From a virus (Duplodnaviria > Heunggongvirae > Uroviricota > Caudoviricetes), in the IMG/VR virus record IMGVR_UViG_2913192161_000005, positions 1 through 32,770 of that record: DNA of 32,770 nucleotides; one strand, 5' to 3'. The notes beneath the pieces were generated by a model. That model did not search any database and was not told where the DNA came from. It was given only the letters and a program-made list of their open reading frames with translations. Made by a program: the position numbers and the translations under genes. This document shows, piece after piece, positions 1 to 9,629 of this stretch (positions are counted from its first letter, which is position 1; every line of letters starts with the position of its first letter).

Positions 1-996
1 TTATGGACGCATTATGGACATTCCTGACACCGGGTTAAGAGTCACTGCATCTTGTAAGAAATCCGGTGCAAAGTGTGCGTAGGTCATAGTTTGCTGAATG
101 TTAGAATGACCCAGGATGCGCTGCAATGTGATTATGTTACCTCCATTCATTATAAAATGTGTGGCAAATGTATGCCTCAAAACATGCACTGCCTGTCCGT
201 CAGGTAAATCGGGTTTTACTTCCCTGAGAGCGTTGCGCACTTTGTAGTAACTGGCATTAAAAAGCCTGCCTGAATTTTTGGTCTTGATCCGTTTAATCAG
301 GTCCTGCGAAACGGGAATTGTCCTGCGCTTTCCGTTTTTAGTTTTCATAAACGTAACCATCTGGTTAATGATGTGTTCAGCTTTTAAATTAGACACTTCA
401 CTCCAGCGTCCACCAGTAGAAAGGCAGACCAGAGTCGCATTTAATTCATCACCATCGAGCATGGATAACAGCCGTGTAATCTCTTCACTGGACAAAAAAG
501 CCATTTCTGTAACAGCTTCACGTAATCGCTTAACCTCACGGAACGGGTTGTGAGAATGGTATTCACCGGCGTCAATTAACTTGGTGAACATCCCGCTCAT
601 TATTGCCAGATGCCGATTTACGCTGGCTGGTTTTAGACCATCGTTCATCATTACAACGCGATAATCAGTTATCGTTTTCTTTGTTAGCTGGTCAGCTCTG
701 GACACTCCCATTTCTGCAAATTTGGCGATTATTGTCGTCAAACGCCCCCGTTCAATATCTCCACGCTCATGTGATTTTCCGTGATATATCCACCATCTGC
801 CTAACAACTCTGTAAGAGTTCGGCGGTCGGCCGGCTTCTCCAACCACTCTTTGTTGTGGTAGTTAACCAAGACATGACGCTCGAATGCCTGGGCTTCACC
901 TTTAGTTTTAAATTTCCGCCTGATACGTTTTCCATCTGCACCCTGCGGTCTGACGTCCACTTCATAACGACCATCATCGAGCTTTTTAATAGACAT
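1..996 (-). CDS. int: Tyrosine site-specific integrase (P2 Int-like), 331 aa
   Basis: ORF track 1..996 minus. C-terminal catalytic region HVLRHTFATHF..GGNIITLQRILGH..TMTYAHF is a typical tyrosine-recombinase box; N-terminus MSIKKLDDGRYEVD resembles P2 Int as I recall it. Sits next to divergent C repressor as in P2 prophage left end. Confidence 0.93.
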   Translation of the reverse strand: MSIKKLDDGRYEVDVRPQGADGKRIRRKFKTKGEAQAFERHVLVNYHNKEWLEKPADRRTLTELLGRWWIYHGKSHERGDIERGRLTTIIAKFAEMGVSRADQLTKKTITDYRVVMMNDGLKPASVNRHLAIMSGMFTKLIDAGEYHSHNPFREVKRLREAVTEMAFLSSEEITRLLSMLDGDELNATLVCLSTGGRWSEVSNLKAEHIINQMVTFMKTKNGKRRTIPVSQDLIKRIKTKNSGRLFNASYYKVRNALREVKPDLPDGQAVHVLRHTFATHFIMNGGNIITLQRILGHSNIQQTMTYAHFAPDFLQDAVTLNPVSGMSIMRP

Positions 997-3129: not shown

Positions 3130-3354
3130 ATGCCGGACAACGTAGATTTTATTCAGGAACAACAGGCTGAATTACTGGAGCGCCAGATTAACGCGGCAAG
3201 GGTAAAACATTGCGGTGCTTCTGCGCTGGTTTGCGAAGAGTGTGACGCGCCAATACCTGCTGCCCGTCGTGCGGCTTATCCGTCAGCCACGCGTTGTGTT
3301 TCCTGTCAGTCAGTCTTTGAAGCAAAAAACAAACATTACCGGAGAACGGCATGA
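3130..3354 (+). CDS. TraR/DksA-family C4 zinc-finger protein, 74 aa
   Basis: ORF 3130..3354 with AAGGAGC upstream. Contains CxxC-(17)-CxxC (CEECDAPIPAARRAAYPSATRCVSC), typical of TraR/DksA-type zinc fingers. Confidence 0.6.
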   Translation: MPDNVDFIQEQQAELLERQINAARVKHCGASALVCEECDAPIPAARRAAYPSATRCVSCQSVFEAKNKHYRRTA

Positions 3355-3626
3355 GTATTCGTATTGAAATTGGCGAACGTTATGTCGTTACCAGTGACAG
3401 CTTTCAGTTTATTCTCCACGAGAAAAAGAGAGCTGAAAGCGGTAAAAACGCCGGTCAGGAATGGCTGGCGGTGGTTGGTTATTACCCGAAATTAAGCCAG
3501 CTCGTTTCCGGCCTGATGCATCACGATATTCTGACCGGAAGCGCAAAGTCTTTTGCTGATTTAAACGCGCAGGTTGAGCAACTCAGCAAGCGTTGTTCAG
3601 AGGCTTTTGGCTCATATGGCCGTTAA
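3351..3626 (+). CDS. Hypothetical protein, 91 aa (P2 orf83 position)
   Basis: ORF 3351..3626 with GGAGA upstream; 3' end overlaps start of A. Confidence 0.5.
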   Translation: MSIRIEIGERYVVTSDSFQFILHEKKRAESGKNAGQEWLAVVGYYPKLSQLVSGLMHHDILTGSAKSFADLNAQVEQLSKRCSEAFGSYGR

Positions 3627-5901
3627 AGCCTCCGGGCGTTTTGTCCCTCCGTCAGCATTTGCCGCAGGCACCGGTAAGACGTTTACCGGTGCTTATGCAT
3701 GGAACGCGCCACGCGAGGCTGTCGGGCGCGAAAGACCCCTTACACGTGACGAGATGCGTCAGGTGCAAGGTGTTTTATCCACGATTAACCGCCTGCCTTA
3801 CTTTTTGCGCTCGCTGTTTACTTCACGCTATGACTACATTCGGCGCAATAAAAGCCCGGTGCACGGGTTTTATTTCCTCACATCCACTTTTCAGCGTCGT
3901 TTATGGCCGCGCATTGAGCGCGTGAATCAGCGCCATGAAATGAATACCGACGCGTCGTTGCTGTTTCTGGCAGAGCGTGACCACTATGCGCGCCTGCCTG
4001 GAATGAATGACAAGGAGCTGAAAAAGTTTGCTGCCCGTATCTCATCGCAGCTTTTCATGATGTATGAGGAACTCTGCGATGCCTGGGTTGATGCACATGG
4101 CGAGAAAGAATCGCTGTTTACGGATGAGGCGCAGGCTCACCTGTATGGTCATGTTGCTGGTGCTGCACGTGCTTTCAATATTTCCCCGCTCTACTGGAAA
4201 AAATACCGTAAAGGGCAGATGACCACGAGGCAGGCATATTCTGCCATTGCCCGCCTGTTTAACGATGAGTGGTGGACTCATCAGCTTAAAGGCCAGCGTA
4301 TGCGCTGGCATGAGGCGTTACTGATTGCTGTCGGGGAGGTCAATAAAGACCGTTCTCCTTATGCCAGTAAACACGCCATTCGTGATGTGCGTGCACGCCG
4401 CCAGGCAAATCTGGAATTTCTTAAATCGTGTGACCTCGAAAACAGGGAAACCGGCGAGCGCATCGACCTTATCAGTAAGGTGATGGGCAGTATTTCTAAT
4501 CCAGAAATTCGCCGGATGGAGCTGATGAACACCATCGCCGGAATTGAGCGTTACGCCGCCGCAGAGGGTGATGTGGGGATGTTTATCACGCTGACCGCGC
4601 CGTCAAAGTATCACCCGACACGTCAGGTCGGAAAAGGCGAAAGTAAAACCGTCCAGCTTAATCACGGCTGGAACCATGAGGCATTTAATCCAAAGGATGC
4701 GCAGCGTTATCTCTGCCGTATCTGGAGCCTGATGCGCACGGCATTCAAAGATAATGATTTACAGGCCTACGGTTTGCGTGTCGTTGAGCCACACCACGAC
4801 GGAACGCCGCACTGGCATATGATGCTTTTTTGTAATCCACGCCAGCGTAACCAGATTATCGAAATCATGCGTCGCTATGCGCTCAAAGAGGATGGCGACG
4901 AAAGAGGAGCCGCGCGAAACCGTTTTCAGGCGAAACACCTTAACCGGGGCGGTGCTGCGGGGTATATCGCGAAATACATCTCAAAAAATATCGACGGCTA
5001 TGCACTGGATGGTCAGCTCGATAATGATACCGGCAGACCGCTGAAAGACACTGCCGCGGCTGTTACCGCATGGGCGTCAACGTGGCGCATCCCGCAATTT
5101 AAAACGGTTGGTCTGCCGACAATGGGGGCTTACCGTGAACTACGCAAATTGCCTCGCGGCGTCAGCATTGCTGATGAGTTTGACGAGCGCGTCGAGGCTG
5201 CACGCGCCGCTGCAGACAGTGGTGATTTTGCGTTGTATATCAGCGCGCAGGGCGGGGCAAATGTCCCGCGCGATTGTCAGACTGTCAGGGTCGCCCGTAG
5301 CCCGTCGGATGACGTTAACGAGTACGAGGAAGAAGTCGAGAGAGTGGTCGGCATTTACGCGCCGCATCTCGGCGCGCGTCATATTCATATCACCAGAACG
5401 ACGGACTGGCGCATTGTGCCGAAAGTGCCGGTCGTTGAGCCTTTGACTTTAAAAAGCGGCATCGCCGCGCCTCGGAGTCCTGTCAATAACTGTGGAAAGC
5501 TCACCGGTGGTGATACTTCGTTACCGGCTCCCACACCTTCTGAACACGCCGCAGCAGTGCTTAATCTGGTTGATGATGGTGTTATCGAATGGAATGACCC
5601 GGAGGTCGTGAGGGCGCTCAGGGGCGCATTAAAACACGACCTGAGAACACCAAACCGTCAGCAAAGAAACGGAAGCCCGTTAAAACCACATGAAATTGCA
5701 CCATCGGCCAGACTTACCCGGTCGGAAAGAATGCAAATTACCCGTATCCGCGTTGACCTTGCTCAGAAGGGTATCAGGCCGCAGCGATGGGAGCTTGAGG
5801 CGCTGGCGCGTGGCGCGACCGTAAATTATGACGGGAAAAAATTCACGTATCCGGTCGCTGATGAGTGGCCGGGATTCTCAACAGTAATGGAGTGGAGATG
5901 A
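3616..5901 (+). CDS. A: Rolling-circle replication initiator A (P2 gpA), 761 aa
   Basis: ORF track 3574..5901 (TTG); ATG at 3616 gives MAVKASGRFVPPSAFAAGTGK..., matching my recollection of the P2 gpA N-terminus, and gives the 761-aa length I recall for P2 A. Contains HWHMMLF and the catalytic-type YIAKYISKN tyrosine motif. Confidence 0.93.
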   Translation: MAVKASGRFVPPSAFAAGTGKTFTGAYAWNAPREAVGRERPLTRDEMRQVQGVLSTINRLPYFLRSLFTSRYDYIRRNKSPVHGFYFLTSTFQRRLWPRIERVNQRHEMNTDASLLFLAERDHYARLPGMNDKELKKFAARISSQLFMMYEELCDAWVDAHGEKESLFTDEAQAHLYGHVAGAARAFNISPLYWKKYRKGQMTTRQAYSAIARLFNDEWWTHQLKGQRMRWHEALLIAVGEVNKDRSPYASKHAIRDVRARRQANLEFLKSCDLENRETGERIDLISKVMGSISNPEIRRMELMNTIAGIERYAAAEGDVGMFITLTAPSKYHPTRQVGKGESKTVQLNHGWNHEAFNPKDAQRYLCRIWSLMRTAFKDNDLQAYGLRVVEPHHDGTPHWHMMLFCNPRQRNQIIEIMRRYALKEDGDERGAARNRFQAKHLNRGGAAGYIAKYISKNIDGYALDGQLDNDTGRPLKDTAAAVTAWASTWRIPQFKTVGLPTMGAYRELRKLPRGVSIADEFDERVEAARAAADSGDFALYISAQGGANVPRDCQTVRVARSPSDDVNEYEEEVERVVGIYAPHLGARHIHITRTTDWRIVPKVPVVEPLTLKSGIAAPRSPVNNCGKLTGGDTSLPAPTPSEHAAAVLNLVDDGVIEWNDPEVVRALRGALKHDLRTPNRQQRNGSPLKPHEIAPSARLTRSERMQITRIRVDLAQKGIRPQRWELEALARGATVNYDGKKFTYPVADEWPGFSTVMEWR

Positions 5902-6353
5902 TGGCAAAAATTCACGAGGTAAAGCTGCACGCAAAATATTTCGACCTTGTGCTGGAAGGAAAGAAACGCGCAGAGTTTCGGAAAAATGACCGTAATTATG
6001 AGCACGGGGACACGTTGATTTTGCATGAATGGGGGCAGGGTGTGTATACGGGGCGAAAGGTTGAAGCCCGGATAACAGATGTTACTGACCTGTCAGACTG
6101 GCTGGAAGATTATGTCTTGCTAAGTATTGAGCTGCTTAATACAGGCGCATATGAGATTGTGAACTGGAAAGAACTTAGTGAGCGTGGTCTGGTATTCAGA
6201 ATTAATCATGAAATTATGCATCAGCTCGGCCTTGCTGTTATGTATGAACCAGAGACGGGGATGTCTGGCGGGGCAATGGTTGCCACGGATGGAGCATGGA
6301 ACTATTCAGATGAACAGATGGAGCGTGCACAGCAAAACGGGTGGCTTGGATAA
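5898..6353 (+). CDS. DUF3850/ASCH-like protein with C-terminal extension, about 151 aa (P2 orf91 position)
   Basis: In-frame ATG at 5898/5901 within ORF 5865..6353, overlapping A stop. N-terminal MAKIHEVKLHAKYFDLVLEGKKRAEFRKNDRNYEHGDTLILHEW fits the DUF3850 (ASCH-like) pattern as I recall it. Confidence 0.65.
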   Translation: MMAKIHEVKLHAKYFDLVLEGKKRAEFRKNDRNYEHGDTLILHEWGQGVYTGRKVEARITDVTDLSDWLEDYVLLSIELLNTGAYEIVNWKELSERGLVFRINHEIMHQLGLAVMYEPETGMSGGAMVATDGAWNYSDEQMERAQQNGWLG

Positions 6354-6559
6354 TGCACAGAATACCAGGCGAGATACCGCACCATAAAACTAAAAATATC
6401 AAGCTGATGGCTATTGTTCAGCGTTTACAGCGGATTATGGTCAACGAAAATCTGACGCCCGATGAGCTGGTCGGGTGTGCCGAAATAGTCCGGGATAATT
6501 ACGGGCGGTTTAATCATATCGGTCAATCAAGAGTTACGCCACCACCACGCAGACGATAG
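6353..6559 (+). CDS. Small hypothetical protein, 68 aa
   Basis: ATG at 6353 overlapping the upstream stop (TAATG) within ORF 6341..6559. No recognisable motif; stop is 3 bp before repeat copy 1. Confidence 0.35.
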   Translation: MHRIPGEIPHHKTKNIKLMAIVQRLQRIMVNENLTPDELVGCAEIVRDNYGRFNHIGQSRVTPPPRRR

Positions 6560-6561
6560 AG

Positions 6562-6630
6562 AACGCCGCCAGTCGTGAAACTTGTTTTCAGGGCTGGCGG
6601 GGTTGAACAACGAGCGAAGCGAGGCGTTAG
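6562..6630. repeat. 69-bp structured direct repeat, copy 1
   Basis: aacgccgccagtcgtgaaacttgttttcagggctggcggggttgaacaacgagcgaagcgaggcgttag. Roughly 62 of 69 positions identical to copy 2. Internal 15-position hairpin (ccgccag...ctggcgg) and outer complementary ends aacgcc/ggcgtt. Confidence 0.7.
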
Positions 6631-6782: not shown

Positions 6783-7514
6783 ATGGATACTATAATCGCT
6801 TTTCTATCACTCGCTTTTTTCGTTGCTTTCTTCATCGGGTTAATCAAGCCATCACTGGTGCGAATGCCAAACCGCAAACGTGCAAGTGCGGTTTATCTCG
6901 GAGGAGGTTTTGTATTGAGCATAATTGGTTCAATACTCTATCCAACAGAAAAAAGCCAGCCAGTTGCCAAAACTGAAACATCAACCGTTGCAGAACACAA
7001 AGTCCAAAAAACATTCGAATATGGTGAAAAAACACTCAAGGAATATCGGAACGAGTCAAAGAAAACACGACACGATATTGTGAATAGTTACATTGATTTT
7101 AAGGAAGTGCCAGTCACCGCATCAGATGCATTTTATGCCTGCATGAGTGAGTATACATTTACCAAAGATGATGAGTTGAAACTCGGTGATGTTCTTGGGT
7201 GGTGCTTTAATGATTATGAAAATGCCCCGGATTCACTAAACAATAAAATCAATCTTGATACATTTCAGAGTAATTTTAGTGGTTGGGATGGTTCTTATCG
7301 TCCATTGGAAAAACTAATTAAAGATAATATGAACGATGATTCATCTTATAAACATGTGTCAACGGTATATCATTTGGTTTTGAATAAAGACCCGCACGCC
7401 ATTGTGAAAACCACGTTTCGCGGCACTAATGCTTATGGTGGAGTGGTAAAGCAGACCGTAGCGGCGCGCGTCAACGTGCGAACGGGTGAGGTCGATTCGA
7501 TACTCGACAATTAA
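6783..7514 (+). CDS. Cargo membrane protein, two N-terminal TM helices plus about 170-aa soluble domain, 243 aa
   Basis: ORF track 6741..7514; ATG at 6783 has AAGGA upstream and is preferred. Hydrophobic stretches IIAFLSLAFFVAFFIGLI and AVYLGGGFVLSIIGSILY. AT-rich; no P2 backbone counterpart recognised. Confidence 0.6.
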   Translation: MDTIIAFLSLAFFVAFFIGLIKPSLVRMPNRKRASAVYLGGGFVLSIIGSILYPTEKSQPVAKTETSTVAEHKVQKTFEYGEKTLKEYRNESKKTRHDIVNSYIDFKEVPVTASDAFYACMSEYTFTKDDELKLGDVLGWCFNDYENAPDSLNNKINLDTFQSNFSGWDGSYRPLEKLIKDNMNDDSSYKHVSTVYHLVLNKDPHAIVKTTFRGTNAYGGVVKQTVAARVNVRTGEVDSILDN

Positions 7515-7528
7515 ACAATATAGTGACA

Positions 7529-7597
7529 AACGCCGCCAGTACTGAAACTTGTTTTCAGTGCTGGCGGGGTTAAACAACGAGCCACGCGAGGCGTTAG
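7529..7597. repeat. 69-bp structured direct repeat, copy 2
   Basis: aacgccgccagtactgaaacttgttttcagtgctggcggggttaaacaacgagccacgcgaggcgttag. Starts 15 bp after the stop of the 6783..7514 gene; hairpin ccgccagtactgaaa-cttg-ttttcagtgctggcgg at 7533..7567. Confidence 0.7.
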
Positions 7598-7621
7598 ACT
7601 AAATTAAATTGAGGCCGAAAA

Positions 7622-8284
7622 ATGCTTTGGAAAGTGATTACATTTGTACTTGTCGGTGTTTGTATTTTTGTTCTCGGCTTATGGCTAGGTTCTATTCAGG
7701 CTGAATGGTCGAAACCAGAGCATAAAGATGCTGTTGCTTATTTAACTATGATAGGCGGATGGGTCTCAGGAATTGCAACATCAATAGCAGTAATTGTTTC
7801 ACTGTATGCGACATATCAATCATCACAAAATAATATTGAAAAATTAGCTTTATTCTATAAGCCTTACCCGAGCGATAATAATGAAAATTACTGTGCAAAT
7901 GTTGAAGTGAAGAATATGCGGAGTGTTTCGGCGCATATACAAGAGTTTTGTTTGGAAATTAGTGGGGTAGATGGTCACATCAATATAAACAAACTAAAAG
8001 CTAATGGGCTACGAATCCCGTATTCTTTATGCCAAATAGGCGAAGTATGGGAGTTTGCTTTTTATCCTGCTGCAAGTCAGAAAAATATGAAGTTCTATCA
8101 TGAACTGAGTGTTAATGGGAGTCCAACTTTCCGAAGTGGTTTCTTTGTGGTTAAAACATCAATGAAGCAATACAAACTAAGGATACCTAAAGTGTTGTTG
8201 AGAATGATGAAAGCTAACTATGAAAAACAAATAAAAATACGGGAGATGTATAAGGAAATGCATGGTAAAGATATGGATATATAA
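7622..8284 (+). CDS. Cargo membrane protein, two N-terminal TM helices plus about 150-aa soluble domain, 220 aa
   Basis: ORF 7622..8284 with GAGG upstream. Hydrophobic stretches VITFVLVGVCIFVLGLWLGSI and VAYLTMIGGWVSGIATSIAVIVSLYA. Strongly AT-rich. Confidence 0.6.
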   Translation: MLWKVITFVLVGVCIFVLGLWLGSIQAEWSKPEHKDAVAYLTMIGGWVSGIATSIAVIVSLYATYQSSQNNIEKLALFYKPYPSDNNENYCANVEVKNMRSVSAHIQEFCLEISGVDGHININKLKANGLRIPYSLCQIGEVWEFAFYPAASQKNMKFYHELSVNGSPTFRSGFFVVKTSMKQYKLRIPKVLLRMMKANYEKQIKIREMYKEMHGKDMDI

Positions 8285-8407
8285 GACGCATTAAATAGCA
8301 TCAAATTGCATGGTTTTTCCTCCCCTGCAGTGAGTGAGCGCCACCAGTGCTGGCGCGTCTCCGACGTGTTTGTGCAACTGCATTAAAACCGACCCATGAA
8401 GCGGGCG

Positions 8408-8594: not shown

Positions 8595-9629
8595 TCAGCC
8601 GTTGTCAGTGTCCAGTGAGTAGTTTTTAAAGCGGATGACCTCCTGACCGAGCCAGCCGTTTATCTCGCGGATCCTGTCCTGTAACGGGATAAGTTCATTG
8701 CGGACAAAGACCTTTGCCACTTTCTCAATATCACCCAGCGACCCGACGTTCTCCGGCTTGCCGCCCATCAACTGAAAGGGGATGCGGTGCGCGTCCAGCA
8801 GGTCAGCGGCGCTGGCTTTTTTGATATTAAAAAAATCGTCCTTCGTTGCCACTTCACTGAGCGGGATAATTTTAATGCCGTCGGCTTTCCCCTGCGGGGC
8901 ATAGAGAAACAGATTTTTAAAGTTGTTGCGGCCTTTCGACTTAACCATGTTTTCGCGAAGCATTTCGATATCGTTGCGATCCTGCACGGCATCGGTGACG
9001 TACATGATGTATCCGGCATGTGCGCCGTTTTCGTAATACTTGCGGCGGAACAGCGTGGCCGACTCATTCAGCCAGGCAGAGTTAAGGGCGCTGAGATATT
9101 CCGGCAGGCCGTACAGCTCCTGATTAATATCCGGCTCCAGCAGGTGAAACACGGAGCCGGGCGTGAAAGGTGTCGGCTCGTTGAAGGACGGCACCCACCA
9201 GTAAACATCCTCTTCCACACCACGGCGGGTATATTTTGCCGGTGAGGTTTCCAGTCTGATGACCTTACCGGTGGTGCTGTAACGCTTTTCCAGAAACGCA
9301 TTACCGAACACCAGAAAATCCAGCACAAAGCGGCTGAAATCCTGCTGGGAAAGCCACGGGTGCGGGATAAATGTCGAGGCCAGAATATTGCGTTTGACGT
9401 AAATCGGTGAGCTGTGATGCACGGCAGCACGCAGACTTTTTGCCAGACCGGTAAAGCTGACCGGCGGCTCATACCATCTGCCGTTACTGATGCATTCTAC
9501 GTAATCCAGAATGTCACGGCGGTCGAGTACCGGCACCGGCTCGCCAAAGGTGAATGCCTCCATTTTCAGGGCGCTGGCGGTCATTGTTTTTGCCGCAGGT
9601 TGCGGTGTTTTCCCTTTTTTCTTACTCAT
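8595..9629 (-). CDS. Q: Portal protein (P2 gpQ), 344 aa
   Basis: ORF 8595..9629 minus. Size and position match P2 Q (first leftward gene beside cos, upstream stop overlaps as TGATG with P). Confidence 0.92.
   Translation of the reverse strand: MSKKKGKTPQPAAKTMTASALKMEAFTFGEPVPVLDRRDILDYVECISNGRWYEPPVSFTGLAKSLRAAVHHSSPIYVKRNILASTFIPHPWLSQQDFSRFVLDFLVFGNAFLEKRYSTTGKVIRLETSPAKYTRRGVEEDVYWWVPSFNEPTPFTPGSVFHLLEPDINQELYGLPEYLSALNSAWLNESATLFRRKYYENGAHAGYIMYVTDAVQDRNDIEMLRENMVKSKGRNNFKNLFLYAPQGKADGIKIIPLSEVATKDDFFNIKKASAADLLDAHRIPFQLMGGKPENVGSLGDIEKVAKVFVRNELIPLQDRIREINGWLGQEVIRFKNYSLDTDNG

What the first reader, a model, noticed from the sequence alone, without database searches (positions are those of the whole stretch)
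6783..7514. 243-aa membrane protein is precisely bracketed by the 69-bp structured repeats
The gene sits between copy 1 (6562-6630, about 150 bp upstream of its start) and copy 2 (7529-7597, 15 bp after its stop), giving a discrete repeat-gene-repeat cassette. That is the arrangement expected of a mobile or recombinationally exchanged moron. The protein itself (two TM helices, then a hydrophilic domain rich in D/E/K/N) has no motif I can assign.
Basis: seen in the sequence. Interest (0 to 1): 0.6.

Follow-up and report, generated by a model that had tools for sequence, protein, structure and literature searches.

The report
PhiX174-type priming sites flank orf97
The two 69-bp "structured repeats" around this P2-like prophage gene are copies of the same hairpin signal that phage phiX174 uses to recruit the host PriA primosome, and the gene between them is a homologue of phage 186 orf97. 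The repeat-gene-repeat layout came from ordinary recombination inside the gene, not from a cassette jumping between the repeats.

Summary
Two 69-nt direct repeats lie at 6562-6630 and 7529-7597 (63/69 identical) and bracket a 243-aa ORF at 6783-7514.

The window is a P2-like prophage. The ORF is a full-length homologue of phage 186 Orf97, whose GenBank note reads "expression from plasmid blocks 186 infection". It has two N-terminal TM helices and a probably periplasmic domain.

The repeat is a conserved, strand-specific two-hairpin element found in many P2/186-like phages. It always lies between gene A and the portal gene Q, and always on the A strand.

A covariance model built from those copies hits the phiX174 F-G intergenic hairpin, the classical PriA/n' primosome assembly site (37 bits, E about 1e-7). 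It also hits the F-plasmid traT-traD spacer, small Mob plasmids and other GpA-type replicons.

I read the repeats as phiX174-type primosome assembly sites for the A-driven rolling-circle replicon. They are accessory: reference P2 and most close relatives lack them.

The cassette reading is only partly supported. Flanks do reassort at the element's edges, but orf97 occurs with no copy, one copy or two. In this window, copy 2 arrived through a crossover inside orf97.

This is a new member of a known kind, of moderate interest.

The parts
3574..5901 (+). Gene A, the rolling-circle replication initiator (GpA/HUH family).
   Evidence: Pfam Phage_GPA 3e-123 plus REP_ORF2-G2P. 97-99% identical to A of P2-type loci. 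The P2 and 186 records annotate A as the nicking replicase.
5467..5490 (+). ori: a 24/24 match to the P2 nick-site sequence GCGCCTCGGAGTCCTGTCAATAAC.
   Evidence: The P2 record marks 'nick site at ori' inside this sequence. Copy 1 lies about 1.09 kb and copy 2 about 2.05 kb downstream on the same strand.
5865..6353 (+). orf91 homologue (DUF3850/ASCH domain).
   Evidence: Pfam DUF3850 8e-18, ASCH 1e-10.
6341..6559 (+). 72-aa ORF ('sm72'). Its stop codon lies 2 nt before copy 1.
   Evidence: PHROG 11386, function unknown. It sits directly upstream of an element in P2-type loci and between two elements (405-bp spacing) in many 186-type loci.
6562..6630 (+). Element copy 1, a phiX174-type primosome assembly site homologue. 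Hairpin 1 is AAC-G-CCGCC..GGCGG-G-GTT. Hairpin 2 is GAAC-AA-CGAGC-GAA-GCGAG-GC-GTT and contains the GCGAAGC mini-hairpin.
   Evidence: Covariance model R1 scores 92.5 bits. Covariation.
6783..7514 (+). orf97 homologue: 243 aa, two TM helices plus an alpha/beta C-terminal domain.
   Evidence: 79% identical over its full length to 186 Orf97 (tblastn; DNA match; annotation). PHROG 3403. AF2 pLDDT 84.9.
7400..7450 (.). Left recombination junction of the mosaic, inside the 3' end of orf97.
   Evidence: Sliding identity: P2-type L002/L056 are at least 92% identical up to 7449 and 36-78% after; 186-type L054 is 56-90% before and 82-100% from 7400 to about 8350. Alignment.
7529..7597 (+). Element copy 2, a phiX174-type primosome assembly site homologue.
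   Evidence: R1 scores 95.2 bits. In several E. coli genomes homology to the window ends exactly at 7597.
7622..8284 (+). 220-aa ORF ('o220') that arrived together with copy 2.
   Evidence: 88-91% identical protein follows orf97-EL in 186-type loci L054 and L084. PHROG 16957, function unknown.
8350..8400 (.). Right junction of the mosaic, where identity returns to the P2-type sequence.
   Evidence: L002/L056 identity rises to 100% from 8400.
8595..9629 (-). Portal gene Q, the conserved right border of the variable region.
   Evidence: Pfam Phage_portal. 99% identical in 80 IMG/VR loci.

Best explanation
Each 69-nt repeat is a phiX174-type primosome assembly site (PAS, also called n'-pas or ssi signal). 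It is read as folded single-stranded DNA on the strand that carries gene A.

Proposed mechanism:
1. The GpA-family initiator A nicks ori inside its own gene (5467-5490) and starts rolling-circle synthesis.
2. The displaced + strand folds into hairpin 1 (the PriA/n' recognition hairpin) and hairpin 2.
3. PriA, with PriB and DnaT, loads DnaB/DnaC there, and DnaG primes the complementary strand, as on phiX174 viral DNA.

The element is accessory, because P2-type phages also have their own route to loading DnaB. It sits in the variable A-to-Q region. Because it is a short island of conserved sequence among unrelated cargo genes, cargo on either side reassorts at its edges.

The gene between the two copies is a homologue of 186 orf97, an inner-membrane protein with a probably periplasmic domain. 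It most likely acts as a superinfection-exclusion or defence moron.

In this window the second copy, together with the 220-aa ORF, was joined on by a homologous crossover within orf97. The parents were a P2-type phage (sm72-EL-orf97) and a 186-type region (orf97-EL-o220).

Shown: homology to the phiX174 PAS, strand-specific conserved structure, constant orientation, the mosaic junctions, and dispensability. Inferred: PriA dependence, the strand that A nicks, and the role of Orf97.
For: 1. Homology to the phiX174 PAS region.
- phiX174 2308-2372 reads AACGCC-[hairpin]-GGGGTTGACCAAGCGAAGCGCGGTAGG, against AACGCC-[hairpin]-GGGGTTGAACAACGAGCGAAGCGAGGCGTTAG in the element.
- Model R1 was built only from P2-like copies plus one F copy. 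It hits that region at 37.4 bits, E 1e-7 in 120 kb and 1.5e-10 when searched alone.
- That this hairpin is the n'/PriA site rests on established knowledge (Shlomai & Kornberg 1980). PMC5778457 confirms that the PAS is a hairpin on phiX ssDNA where PriA, PriB, PriC and DnaT load DnaB.
- Phage G4, which uses a primase-only origin, gives no match.

2. Conserved, strand-specific structure.
- In hairpin 1, 8 of 14 pairs show changes on both sides, 95.6% of cells are paired, and 0 of 500 shuffles reach the observed score.
- G-T wobbles on the + strand outnumber A-C by 289 to 33.
- Hairpin 2's outer pair covaries across families: GAAC..GTTAG versus GGAC..GTCAG.

3. Orientation and context.
- All strong copies lie on the A strand, between A and Q: about 120 pattern-derived loci and 65 of 65 hits in unbiased samples.
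- The F-plasmid copy (73 bits) lies between traT and traD, antisense to the tra genes, which puts it on the transferred strand (the strand assignment is from F biology).
- Copies follow other GpA-like rep genes on the same strand (L209 and L252, 68 and 59 bits) and occur on small Mob plasmids.
- ColE1 carries CGAGC-GTA-GCGAG about 130 nt downstream of ori on the displaced strand, where ssiA lies (PMC3167613).

4. A is a GpA/HUH initiator, and the P2 nick sequence is present 24/24 on the + strand.

5. Mosaic origin of the layout.

Against: - The element is dispensable. Reference phage P2 has none.
- Only about 15 of 67 close P2-type relatives and about 44 of 70 186-type loci carry one.
- I could not verify from a held source which strand A nicks, or the direction of fork movement. 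I have an uncertain recollection of old electron-microscopy work describing P2/186 replication as 'right to left'. If that is correct, the + strand would be the leading-strand template and would not be exposed as ssDNA.
- The location of the phiX174 n' site is from my own knowledge, not from a paper I could open.
- The ColE1 similarity is weak by the covariance model (8 bits, E 6).
- The abundance of G-U-type wobbles would also suit an RNA.
Confidence: 0.7

Rival explanations
1. The repeats are site-specific recombination sites, attC-like folded sites or targets of a dedicated recombinase or HUH enzyme. They would define mobile gene cassettes, of which orf97 is one.
For: - The element has sharp, fixed edges: 108 of 128 copies are exactly 69 nt.
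- It always starts 2-50 nt after a stop codon and ends in GTTAG, resembling an attC R' box.
- Left and right flanks reassort freely.
- Gene-plus-element units occur in permuted order, and as EL-sm72-EL arrays.
- Several E. coli genomes lose homology exactly at the end of copy 2.
- From memory only, Nilsson et al. 2004 (MBE 21:1) proposed site-specific recombination at a repeat in this region. The paper could not be opened.
Against: - The end-to-end (R''/R'-like) pairing has no covariation: 0 pairs with double changes, and shuffles do as well. The F copy breaks that pairing.
- The element subtype can travel with its right flank as well as its left. The 'CTCGC-ACC' subtype stays with sm72 behind either orf97 or gene X. 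That is not what a fixed crossover point predicts.
- orf97 occurs without a downstream element in many phages.
- This window's junction is inside orf97.
- The only recombinase in the window is the ordinary phage integrase.
- The element is homologous to a priming signal.
Confidence: 0.1
2. The element acts mainly as RNA. It would be an intercistronic stem-loop that stabilises the upstream mRNA, acts as a leaky terminator or RNase III site, or presents GAGG as a ribosome-binding site for the next gene.
For: - It is co-oriented with transcription in all P2-like phages and placed just after stop codons.
- It is rich in G-U-type wobbles.
- In 186 it sits between orf97 and terminator t95b.
- In several loci an ATG follows 3-5 nt after the element, with GAGG 8-10 nt upstream.
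Against: - In F-like plasmids, and next to the mob genes of a Vibrio plasmid, it is antisense to the neighbouring genes.
- No U-tract follows hairpin 1, and no terminator-like site is called at either copy.
- There is no Rfam family match.
- The closest characterised relative works as ssDNA.
- The GC-GNA-GC mini-hairpin of hairpin 2 is a DNA-stable motif (own knowledge).
Confidence: 0.12
3. The element has no present function in the phage. It would be a selfish or relic miniature repeat (REP- or MITE-like) that merely provides homology for recombination.
For: - It is absent from many close relatives.
- Related copies are multi-copy and dispersed in two Acidobacteria MAGs, some in 255-bp tandem units and preceded by GTAG plus a palindrome, like REP elements.
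Against: - E. coli genomes that have it hold a median of one copy, in a prophage or F plasmid, so it is not a dispersed host repeat.
- Position and orientation are constant in P2-like phages.
- Extensive compensatory change shows the fold is under purifying selection.
Confidence: 0.05

Closest known systems
phiX174 primosome assembly site (n'/PriA recognition site, F-G intergenic hairpin; complementary-strand origin)
   Same: - Same architecture and conserved letters: AAC-G-CC[variable long hairpin]GG-G-GTT-GAxCAA, then a GCGAAGC mini-hairpin, then ..GCG.TAG.
- Intergenic, starting shortly after a stop codon.
- On the same strand as the genes and as the GpA-family initiator gene.
- The fold is strand-specific.
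   Different: - Hairpin 2 is longer in the P2/F version (CGAGC-NNN-GCGAG with tandem G-A, closed by GAAC/GTT).
- The host replicon is a 33-kb dsDNA phage that replicates by rolling circle, not an ssDNA virus.
- The element is optional and can be present in two copies.
- Function was not tested here.
Plasmid ssi / n'-pas signals (ColE1/pBR322 ssiA; ssi signals of F, R100 and others)
   Same: - Hairpin signals on the strand that becomes single-stranded.
- The F traT-traD copy is a strong model match (73 bits).
- ColE1 has the CGAGC-GTA-GCGAG core about 130 nt downstream of ori on the displaced strand.
   Different: - ColE1 as a whole barely matches the model (8 bits).
- I could not confirm from a held paper that the F traT-traD element is one of the mapped F ssi signals.
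Integron attC sites and gene cassettes
   Same: - Structured, strand-specific imperfect palindrome of 57-141 nt at the 3' end of ORFs.
- Ends in GTTAG.
- Gene-plus-site units occur in arrays and in permuted order.
   Different: - No R''/R' covariation.
- No integron integrase or attI.
- The site is not strictly linked to the upstream ORF.
- Junctions occur at both edges.
- It is homologous to a priming signal.
Phage 186 Orf97 (AAC34191)
   Same: 243 aa, 79% identical over the full length, and the same position in the A-to-Q region, followed by the same element.
   Different: In 186 it belongs to the LexA-controlled p95 (tum) operon, with terminator t95a upstream and a single element downstream. 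Here it follows sm72-EL in a P2-type backbone. The exclusion phenotype is known only from the 186 record's note.

Membership tests
phiX174-type primosome assembly site (PriA-dependent ssi) | Sequence and structure similarity to the phiX174 n' recognition hairpin. | tested here: met
   Model R1, trained without phiX174, hits NC_001422 2302-2378 at 37.4 bits, E 1e-7. The shared motifs are visible.
phiX174-type primosome assembly site (PriA-dependent ssi) | A strand-specific stable hairpin maintained by selection. | tested here: met
   Covariation 0/500 shuffles, and 8 of 14 pairs with double changes. G-T versus A-C is 289 to 33. DNA-fold z is -5.4 and -4.6.
phiX174-type primosome assembly site (PriA-dependent ssi) | Lies on the strand that becomes single-stranded (displaced or transferred). 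| tested here: inconclusive
   F copy: antisense to tra genes, hence on the T-strand by F biology. ColE1 core: on the displaced strand. P2-likes: always the A-gene strand, but the strand nicked by A was not verifiable here.
phiX174-type primosome assembly site (PriA-dependent ssi) | Binds PriA, activates its ATPase, and supports rifampicin-resistant SS-to-RF conversion. | not testable with these tools
   Needs biochemistry or an M13-delta-ori assay.
G4-type (primase-only) ssi | Similarity to the G4 complementary-strand origin (three hairpins, with CTG at the primer start). | tested here: not met
   No R1 match in the G4 3700-4200 region. The sequences are visibly unrelated.
Integron attC / gene cassette | Terminal R'' (RYYYAAC) and R' (GTTRRRY) boxes that pair with each other. 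| tested here: not met
   GTTAG is present, but the bases outside AAC/GTT are not complementary. The end-to-end helix has no covariation. AAC and GTT pair locally within each hairpin instead.
Integron attC / gene cassette | Associated integron integrase, attI and cassette promoter. | tested here: not met
   The only recombinase in the window is the prophage integrase at 1-996. The A-to-Q region holds no recombinase.
Integron attC / gene cassette | Each ORF consistently carries its own site at its 3' end. | tested here: not met
   orf97 lacks a downstream element in P2-type relatives. The element subtype follows the right flank in EL-sm72 units.
Intrinsic transcription terminator | G+C-rich hairpin followed directly by a T/U run. 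| tested here: not met
   Hairpin 1 is followed by GGGGTTGAAC. The scan calls no terminator at either copy. In 186 the annotated terminator t95b is a separate hairpin 22 nt downstream.
Ubiquitous host intergenic repeat (REP/BIME/ERIC-like) | Many dispersed copies per host chromosome. | tested here: not met
   Genomes that have any hold a median of 1 and a maximum of 4 places. Full-length copies occur in 479 of 5426 E. coli genomes. The remaining matches are the partial F-plasmid copy.
Phage 186 Orf97 protein family (PHROG 3403) | Full-length homology to 186 Orf97. | tested here: met
   79% identity at coverage 1.0. PHROG 3403 at 5.5e-145. 160 homologues, almost all 243 aa, all in Enterobacterales.
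Phage 186 Orf97 protein family (PHROG 3403) | Blocks infection by 186-like phages when expressed. | not testable with these tools
No PADLOC or Pfam family matches.

The most novel reading that the evidence does not exclude
Primosome assembly sites may be more than priming signals. They could be the portable junctions that drive turnover of defence and accessory genes in P2-like hotspots, and exchange with plasmids. A conserved, PriA-loading hairpin would nucleate replication restart and template switching, or simply offer the only shared sequence between otherwise unrelated mobile elements. Gene-plus-PAS units would then behave like integrase-free cassettes. The same motif family, dispersed in Acidobacteria and present on plasmids of several phyla, would be a general and so far unannotated signature of ssDNA-stage mobile DNA.
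Probability: 0.2. Interest if true: 0.75.

Novelty: new member of a known kind. Interest (0 to 1): 0.5.

Why it matters
- It names a conserved, unannotated 69-nt element in a heavily studied phage family. The detailed 186 record does not annotate it, and Rfam has no model for it.
- It links P2/186 lagging-strand initiation to the classical PriA primosome.
- It offers a testable explanation for the observed junction structure of the P2 defence-gene hotspot. The mechanism of exchange there was left open in PMC9122126.
- The covariance model also picks up the same signal in F-like plasmids, small mobilisable plasmids, other GpA replicons and distant phyla. PAS-type signals could therefore be charted systematically and used to infer which strand of a mobile element becomes single-stranded.
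- For the gene itself, the result points to a periplasm-facing exclusion protein worth testing as a defence factor.

Tried and rejected
- **Rfam:** no family at the element, at gathering thresholds on the window or at E-value thresholds on seven related loci.
- **attC reading:** rejected on pairing and context.
- **Terminator reading:** rejected.
- **Host repeat (REP/ERIC):** rejected on copy number.
- **G4-type origin:** rejected.
- **Similarity of the element to the P2/186 ori nick site:** only a 7-nt complement in P2, not kept in 186. Dropped.
- **10-nt identity to the 16S rRNA 1100 region:** recalled from memory and judged to be chance. Not pursued.
- **Literature search for the motif as text:** found only an unrelated primer.
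- **Papers that could not be opened:** Nilsson et al. 2004, Odegrip et al. 2006, Christie & Calendar 2016 and Shlomai & Kornberg 1980. What I say about them is from memory.
- **Two hotspot papers:** neither mentions repeats, hairpins or terminators at this locus.
- **Essential-origin hypothesis:** rejected, because P2 and most close relatives lack the element.
- **afdb50 fold library:** unavailable.
- **First flank-extraction script:** failed and was rewritten.

Full report
**1. What is in the sequence**

The window is a P2-like (Peduoviridae) prophage.
- It encodes an integrase (1-996, minus strand), the GpA-family replication initiator A (3574-5901), and portal Q and terminase P on the minus strand.
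- The P2 ori nick sequence is present 24/24 at 5467-5490 on the + strand (P2 annotation).
- Between A and Q lie orf91 (DUF3850/ASCH), a 72-aa ORF I call sm72, repeat copy 1 (6562-6630), a 243-aa ORF (6783-7514), repeat copy 2 (7529-7597), a 220-aa ORF (o220) and a 53-aa ORF.

The two repeats are 63/69 identical, are the only such family in the window, and are not expected by chance.

**2. The gene**

The ORF is a full-length homologue of phage 186 Orf97.
- It is 79% identical at the protein level, and the DNA match covers the gene plus copy 2.
- The 186 record notes for Orf97 that "expression from plasmid blocks 186 infection".
- The family has 160 detectable members, nearly all exactly 243 aa, all in Enterobacterales, none with a Pfam domain or a name. 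It corresponds to PHROG 3403, of unknown function, and is absent from PADLOC.

An AlphaFold model (pLDDT 84.9) shows two N-terminal helices (2-26 and 31-52), a disordered linker, and a confident alpha/beta domain.
- The loop between the helices is rich in K and R, which places the C-terminal domain in the periplasm.
- Cys120 and Cys141 are invariant.
- Foldseek against the PDB finds nothing significant.

I infer an inner-membrane, periplasm-facing superinfection-exclusion or defence protein. This was not tested.

**3. The repeat is a widespread, structured, strand-specific element**

BLAST finds it in 78 phage records from Escherichia, Yersinia, Klebsiella, Salmonella and Erwinia hosts, with one or two copies each. 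In E. coli genomes that have any copy, the median is one place, so it is not a host-wide intergenic repeat.

Pattern scans of IMG/VR gave about 140 loci. In every one, the element lies between A and Q on the A strand and starts 2-50 nt after a stop codon.

Conservation begins sharply at AAC and ends sharply at GGCGTTAG, and 108 of 128 distinct copies are exactly 69 nt.

On an alignment of 122 copies:
- A long hairpin (hairpin 1) has 8 of 14 pairs with changes on both sides, 95.6% of cells paired, and 0 of 500 shuffles reaching the observed score.
- G-T wobbles on the + strand outnumber A-C by 289 to 33, so it is the + strand that folds.
- The 3' part forms a second small hairpin, GAAC-AA-CGAGC-NNN-GCGAG-GC-GTT, with tandem G-A pairs. 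Its outer pair covaries across distant relatives, GAAC..GTTAG versus GGAC..GTCAG.
- Rfam has no matching family.

**4. Identification**

About 1800 F-like plasmids carry a copy between traT and traD, with an unrelated hairpin-1 sequence but the same frame. It is oriented antisense to the tra genes, which by F biology puts it on the transferred strand.

A scan of one genome per species with the 3' motif found further copies:
- on small mobilisable plasmids;
- next to other GpA-like rep genes, on the same strand;
- in IncP-like contexts;
- as a multi-copy family in two Acidobacteria MAGs.

ColE1 carries the core CGAGC-GTA-GCGAG about 130 nt downstream of its origin on the displaced strand. That is where the PriA-dependent ssiA lies (PMC3167613).

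That lead pointed to phiX174. Its F-G intergenic region reads AACGCCGAAGCGGTAAAAATTTTAATTTTTGCCGCTGAGGGGTTGACCAAGCGAAGCGCGGTAGG. This has the same frame and conserved letters as the element, including the GCGAAGC mini-hairpin found in copy 1.

A covariance model built from the P2-like copies gave these scores:

| Target | Score |
|---|---|
| phiX174 F-G region | 37.4 bits (E 1e-7 in 120 kb; 1.5e-10 alone) |
| F-plasmid traT-traD copy | 73 bits |
| GpA-plus-umuD loci (L209, L252) | 59-68 bits |
| Acidobacteria and plasmid copies | 23-46 bits |
| Phage G4 | no match |
| Reference P2 | no credible match (best 14.6 bits, E 0.11, inside gene A) |

From established knowledge, this phiX174 hairpin is the n'/PriA recognition site, the primosome assembly site. 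PMC5778457 describes that site as the hairpin on phiX ssDNA where PriA, PriB, PriC and DnaT load DnaB. I therefore identify the repeats as phiX174-type primosome assembly sites.

**5. How the layout arose, and how far the cassette idea holds**

orf97 is found in several layouts:
- with an element only downstream (186-type, more than 35 loci);
- with an element only upstream (P2-type relatives, each with different unrelated DNA after the stop codon);
- with both, as in this window, one IMG/VR locus (L289) and at least a dozen E. coli genomes;
- followed by an internally deleted element (L042).

Sliding identity shows the window is a mosaic:

| Window region | Best match |
|---|---|
| 6300 to about 7440 | at least 92%, mostly 98-100%, identical to P2-type loci |
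| about 7450 to 8350 | about 90% identical to a 186-type orf97-EL-o220 locus; unrelated to the P2-type loci |
| 8400 onward | P2-type again |

The left crossover therefore lies inside orf97. The repeat-gene-repeat bracket is a by-product of homologous recombination between lineages that carry the element on opposite sides of the gene.

The two copies share no identical run longer than 16 nt, so recombination between them should be inefficient.

On the wider scale the element is a genuine junction:
- 16 left-flank and 37 right-flank classes reassort.
- Units occur in permuted order.
- Homology in several E. coli genomes stops exactly at the end of copy 2.

But junctions occur at both edges, the element subtype can follow either flank, the attC-like end pairing has no covariation support, and no dedicated recombinase is present. 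Exchange at a conserved island within variable DNA explains the data without a site-specific system.

**6. Dispensability**

- Reference P2 lacks the element: orf91 is truncated and tin/old follow.
- In an unbiased sample of 67 complete loci with a 99%-identical Q, only about 15 carry it.
- Among 70 complete 186-type loci, about 44 carry it. The difference is significant (Fisher p about 2e-6), although the loci are not independent.

The element is therefore an accessory part of the variable region, not a core origin. Its higher frequency in 186-type phages fits an auxiliary priming role, because from memory these lack the P2 B-type helicase loader. This is an inference.

**7. Uncertainties**

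- I could not confirm from a held source which strand A nicks, or the direction of fork movement. The mechanism requires the + strand to be displaced, as in phiX174.
- The exact coordinates of the phiX174 n' site, the content of Nilsson et al. 2004 (which, as I recall, already noted a repeat in this region and proposed site-specific recombination), and the list of mapped F ssi signals all rest on memory.
- An additional RNA-level role, as an mRNA 3' stabiliser or leaky terminator, cannot be excluded.

**8. Verdict**

The repeats are new members of a known kind (PriA-type primosome assembly sites). The gene belongs to the Orf97 family, whose mechanism is unknown. Interest is moderate. It would be higher if the junction role of these sites in hotspot turnover, or their cross-phylum distribution, proves real.

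Noticed in passing
L124:1466-1536 (+), E. coli plasmid NZ_CP015086, traT-traD spacer: F-like plasmids (about 1800 records) carry a full homologue of the element, 73 bits with model R1. Hairpin 1 has a completely different sequence but the same frame. It is oriented antisense to the tra genes. A second F-like variant has yet another hairpin-1 sequence.
   Followed up: partly
L212:116-724, L191:147-511, L205 (Acidobacteria MAGs p16x34bins.10 and p16x33bins.48): The hairpin-2 motif, preceded by GTAG plus a GC-rich palindrome, occurs dozens of times on many contigs. Some copies are in 255- or 302-bp tandem units that also contain an inverted variant copy. This looks like a REP- or MITE-like dispersed family sharing the PAS tail.
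   Followed up: partly
L209:1724-1806, L252:6261-6343 (-), L221 about 7135-7206: A 438-aa GpA-like rep gene is followed on the same strand by the element. An umuD-like or other ORF then starts with an ATG only 3-5 nt after GTTAG, so the element's GAGG sits at Shine-Dalgarno distance.
   Followed up: partly
L266:1322-1372 (ColE1 NC_001371): GAACGAC-CGAGC-GTA-GCGAG-TCAG, followed by GAGCGAGGAAGCGG, lies about 125-170 nt downstream of the inferred ori on the displaced strand, the expected ssiA region. Only the core resembles the element (R1 8 bits).
   Followed up: partly
window 6341-6559, and loci L013, L016, L052, L090 and others: The 72-aa ORF sm72 (PHROG 11386, function unknown) always ends just before an element. 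In 186-type phages it sits between two elements 405 bp apart. The upstream element of that pair is a distinct subtype whose hairpin 2 is fully Watson-Crick (CTCGC-ACC-GCGAG).
   Followed up: partly
L042:668-760: After orf97 there is an internally deleted remnant of the element (ACAAACGCCGCCGGTGTTGAAAAACGACTACCGCGAGGCGTTTG). It is followed by sm72 and an intact element.
   Followed up: no
window 5865-6353: orf91 has a DUF3850/ASCH (PUA-like, RNA-binding type) domain plus DUF7415. It is truncated in reference P2 and absent, together with sm72 and the element, from about three quarters of close relatives.
   Followed up: no
window 7622-8284: The 220-aa ORF after copy 2 (PHROG 16957, function unknown, hydrophobic N-terminus) is found at 88-91% identity after orf97-EL in 186-type loci. 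Distant versions (24-27% identity) occupy the same position in other phages.
   Followed up: no
L236 (period about 3751 bp; copies at about 2095-2176 + and 3170-3250 -), L240:3333-3423 (-), L199:3095-3137 (-), L177:1171-1264 (-): Small mobilisable plasmids (MOBV- and MOBQ-type relaxases; one with a PAGEV RNA) carry one or two copies. In L236 two inverted copies flank a 146-aa ORF.
   Followed up: partly
L171:1666-1956: Four tandem 90-bp units, each containing the hairpin-2 motif, lie next to a tRNA gene in a deltaproteobacterial MAG.
   Followed up: no
L161:457-544: In Pseudomonas avellanae a copy lies about 1.3 kb upstream of an OLD-family ATPase/nuclease plus UvrD-like helicase pair, which looks like a Gabija-type defence system.
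   Followed up: no
window 13167-13197/28152-28182, 17026-17057/17711-17742, 11154-11188/29800-29834: Three other short two-copy repeat families (72-77% identity), reported by the repeat finder within structural genes. They are probably chance or paralogous coding similarity.
   Followed up: no
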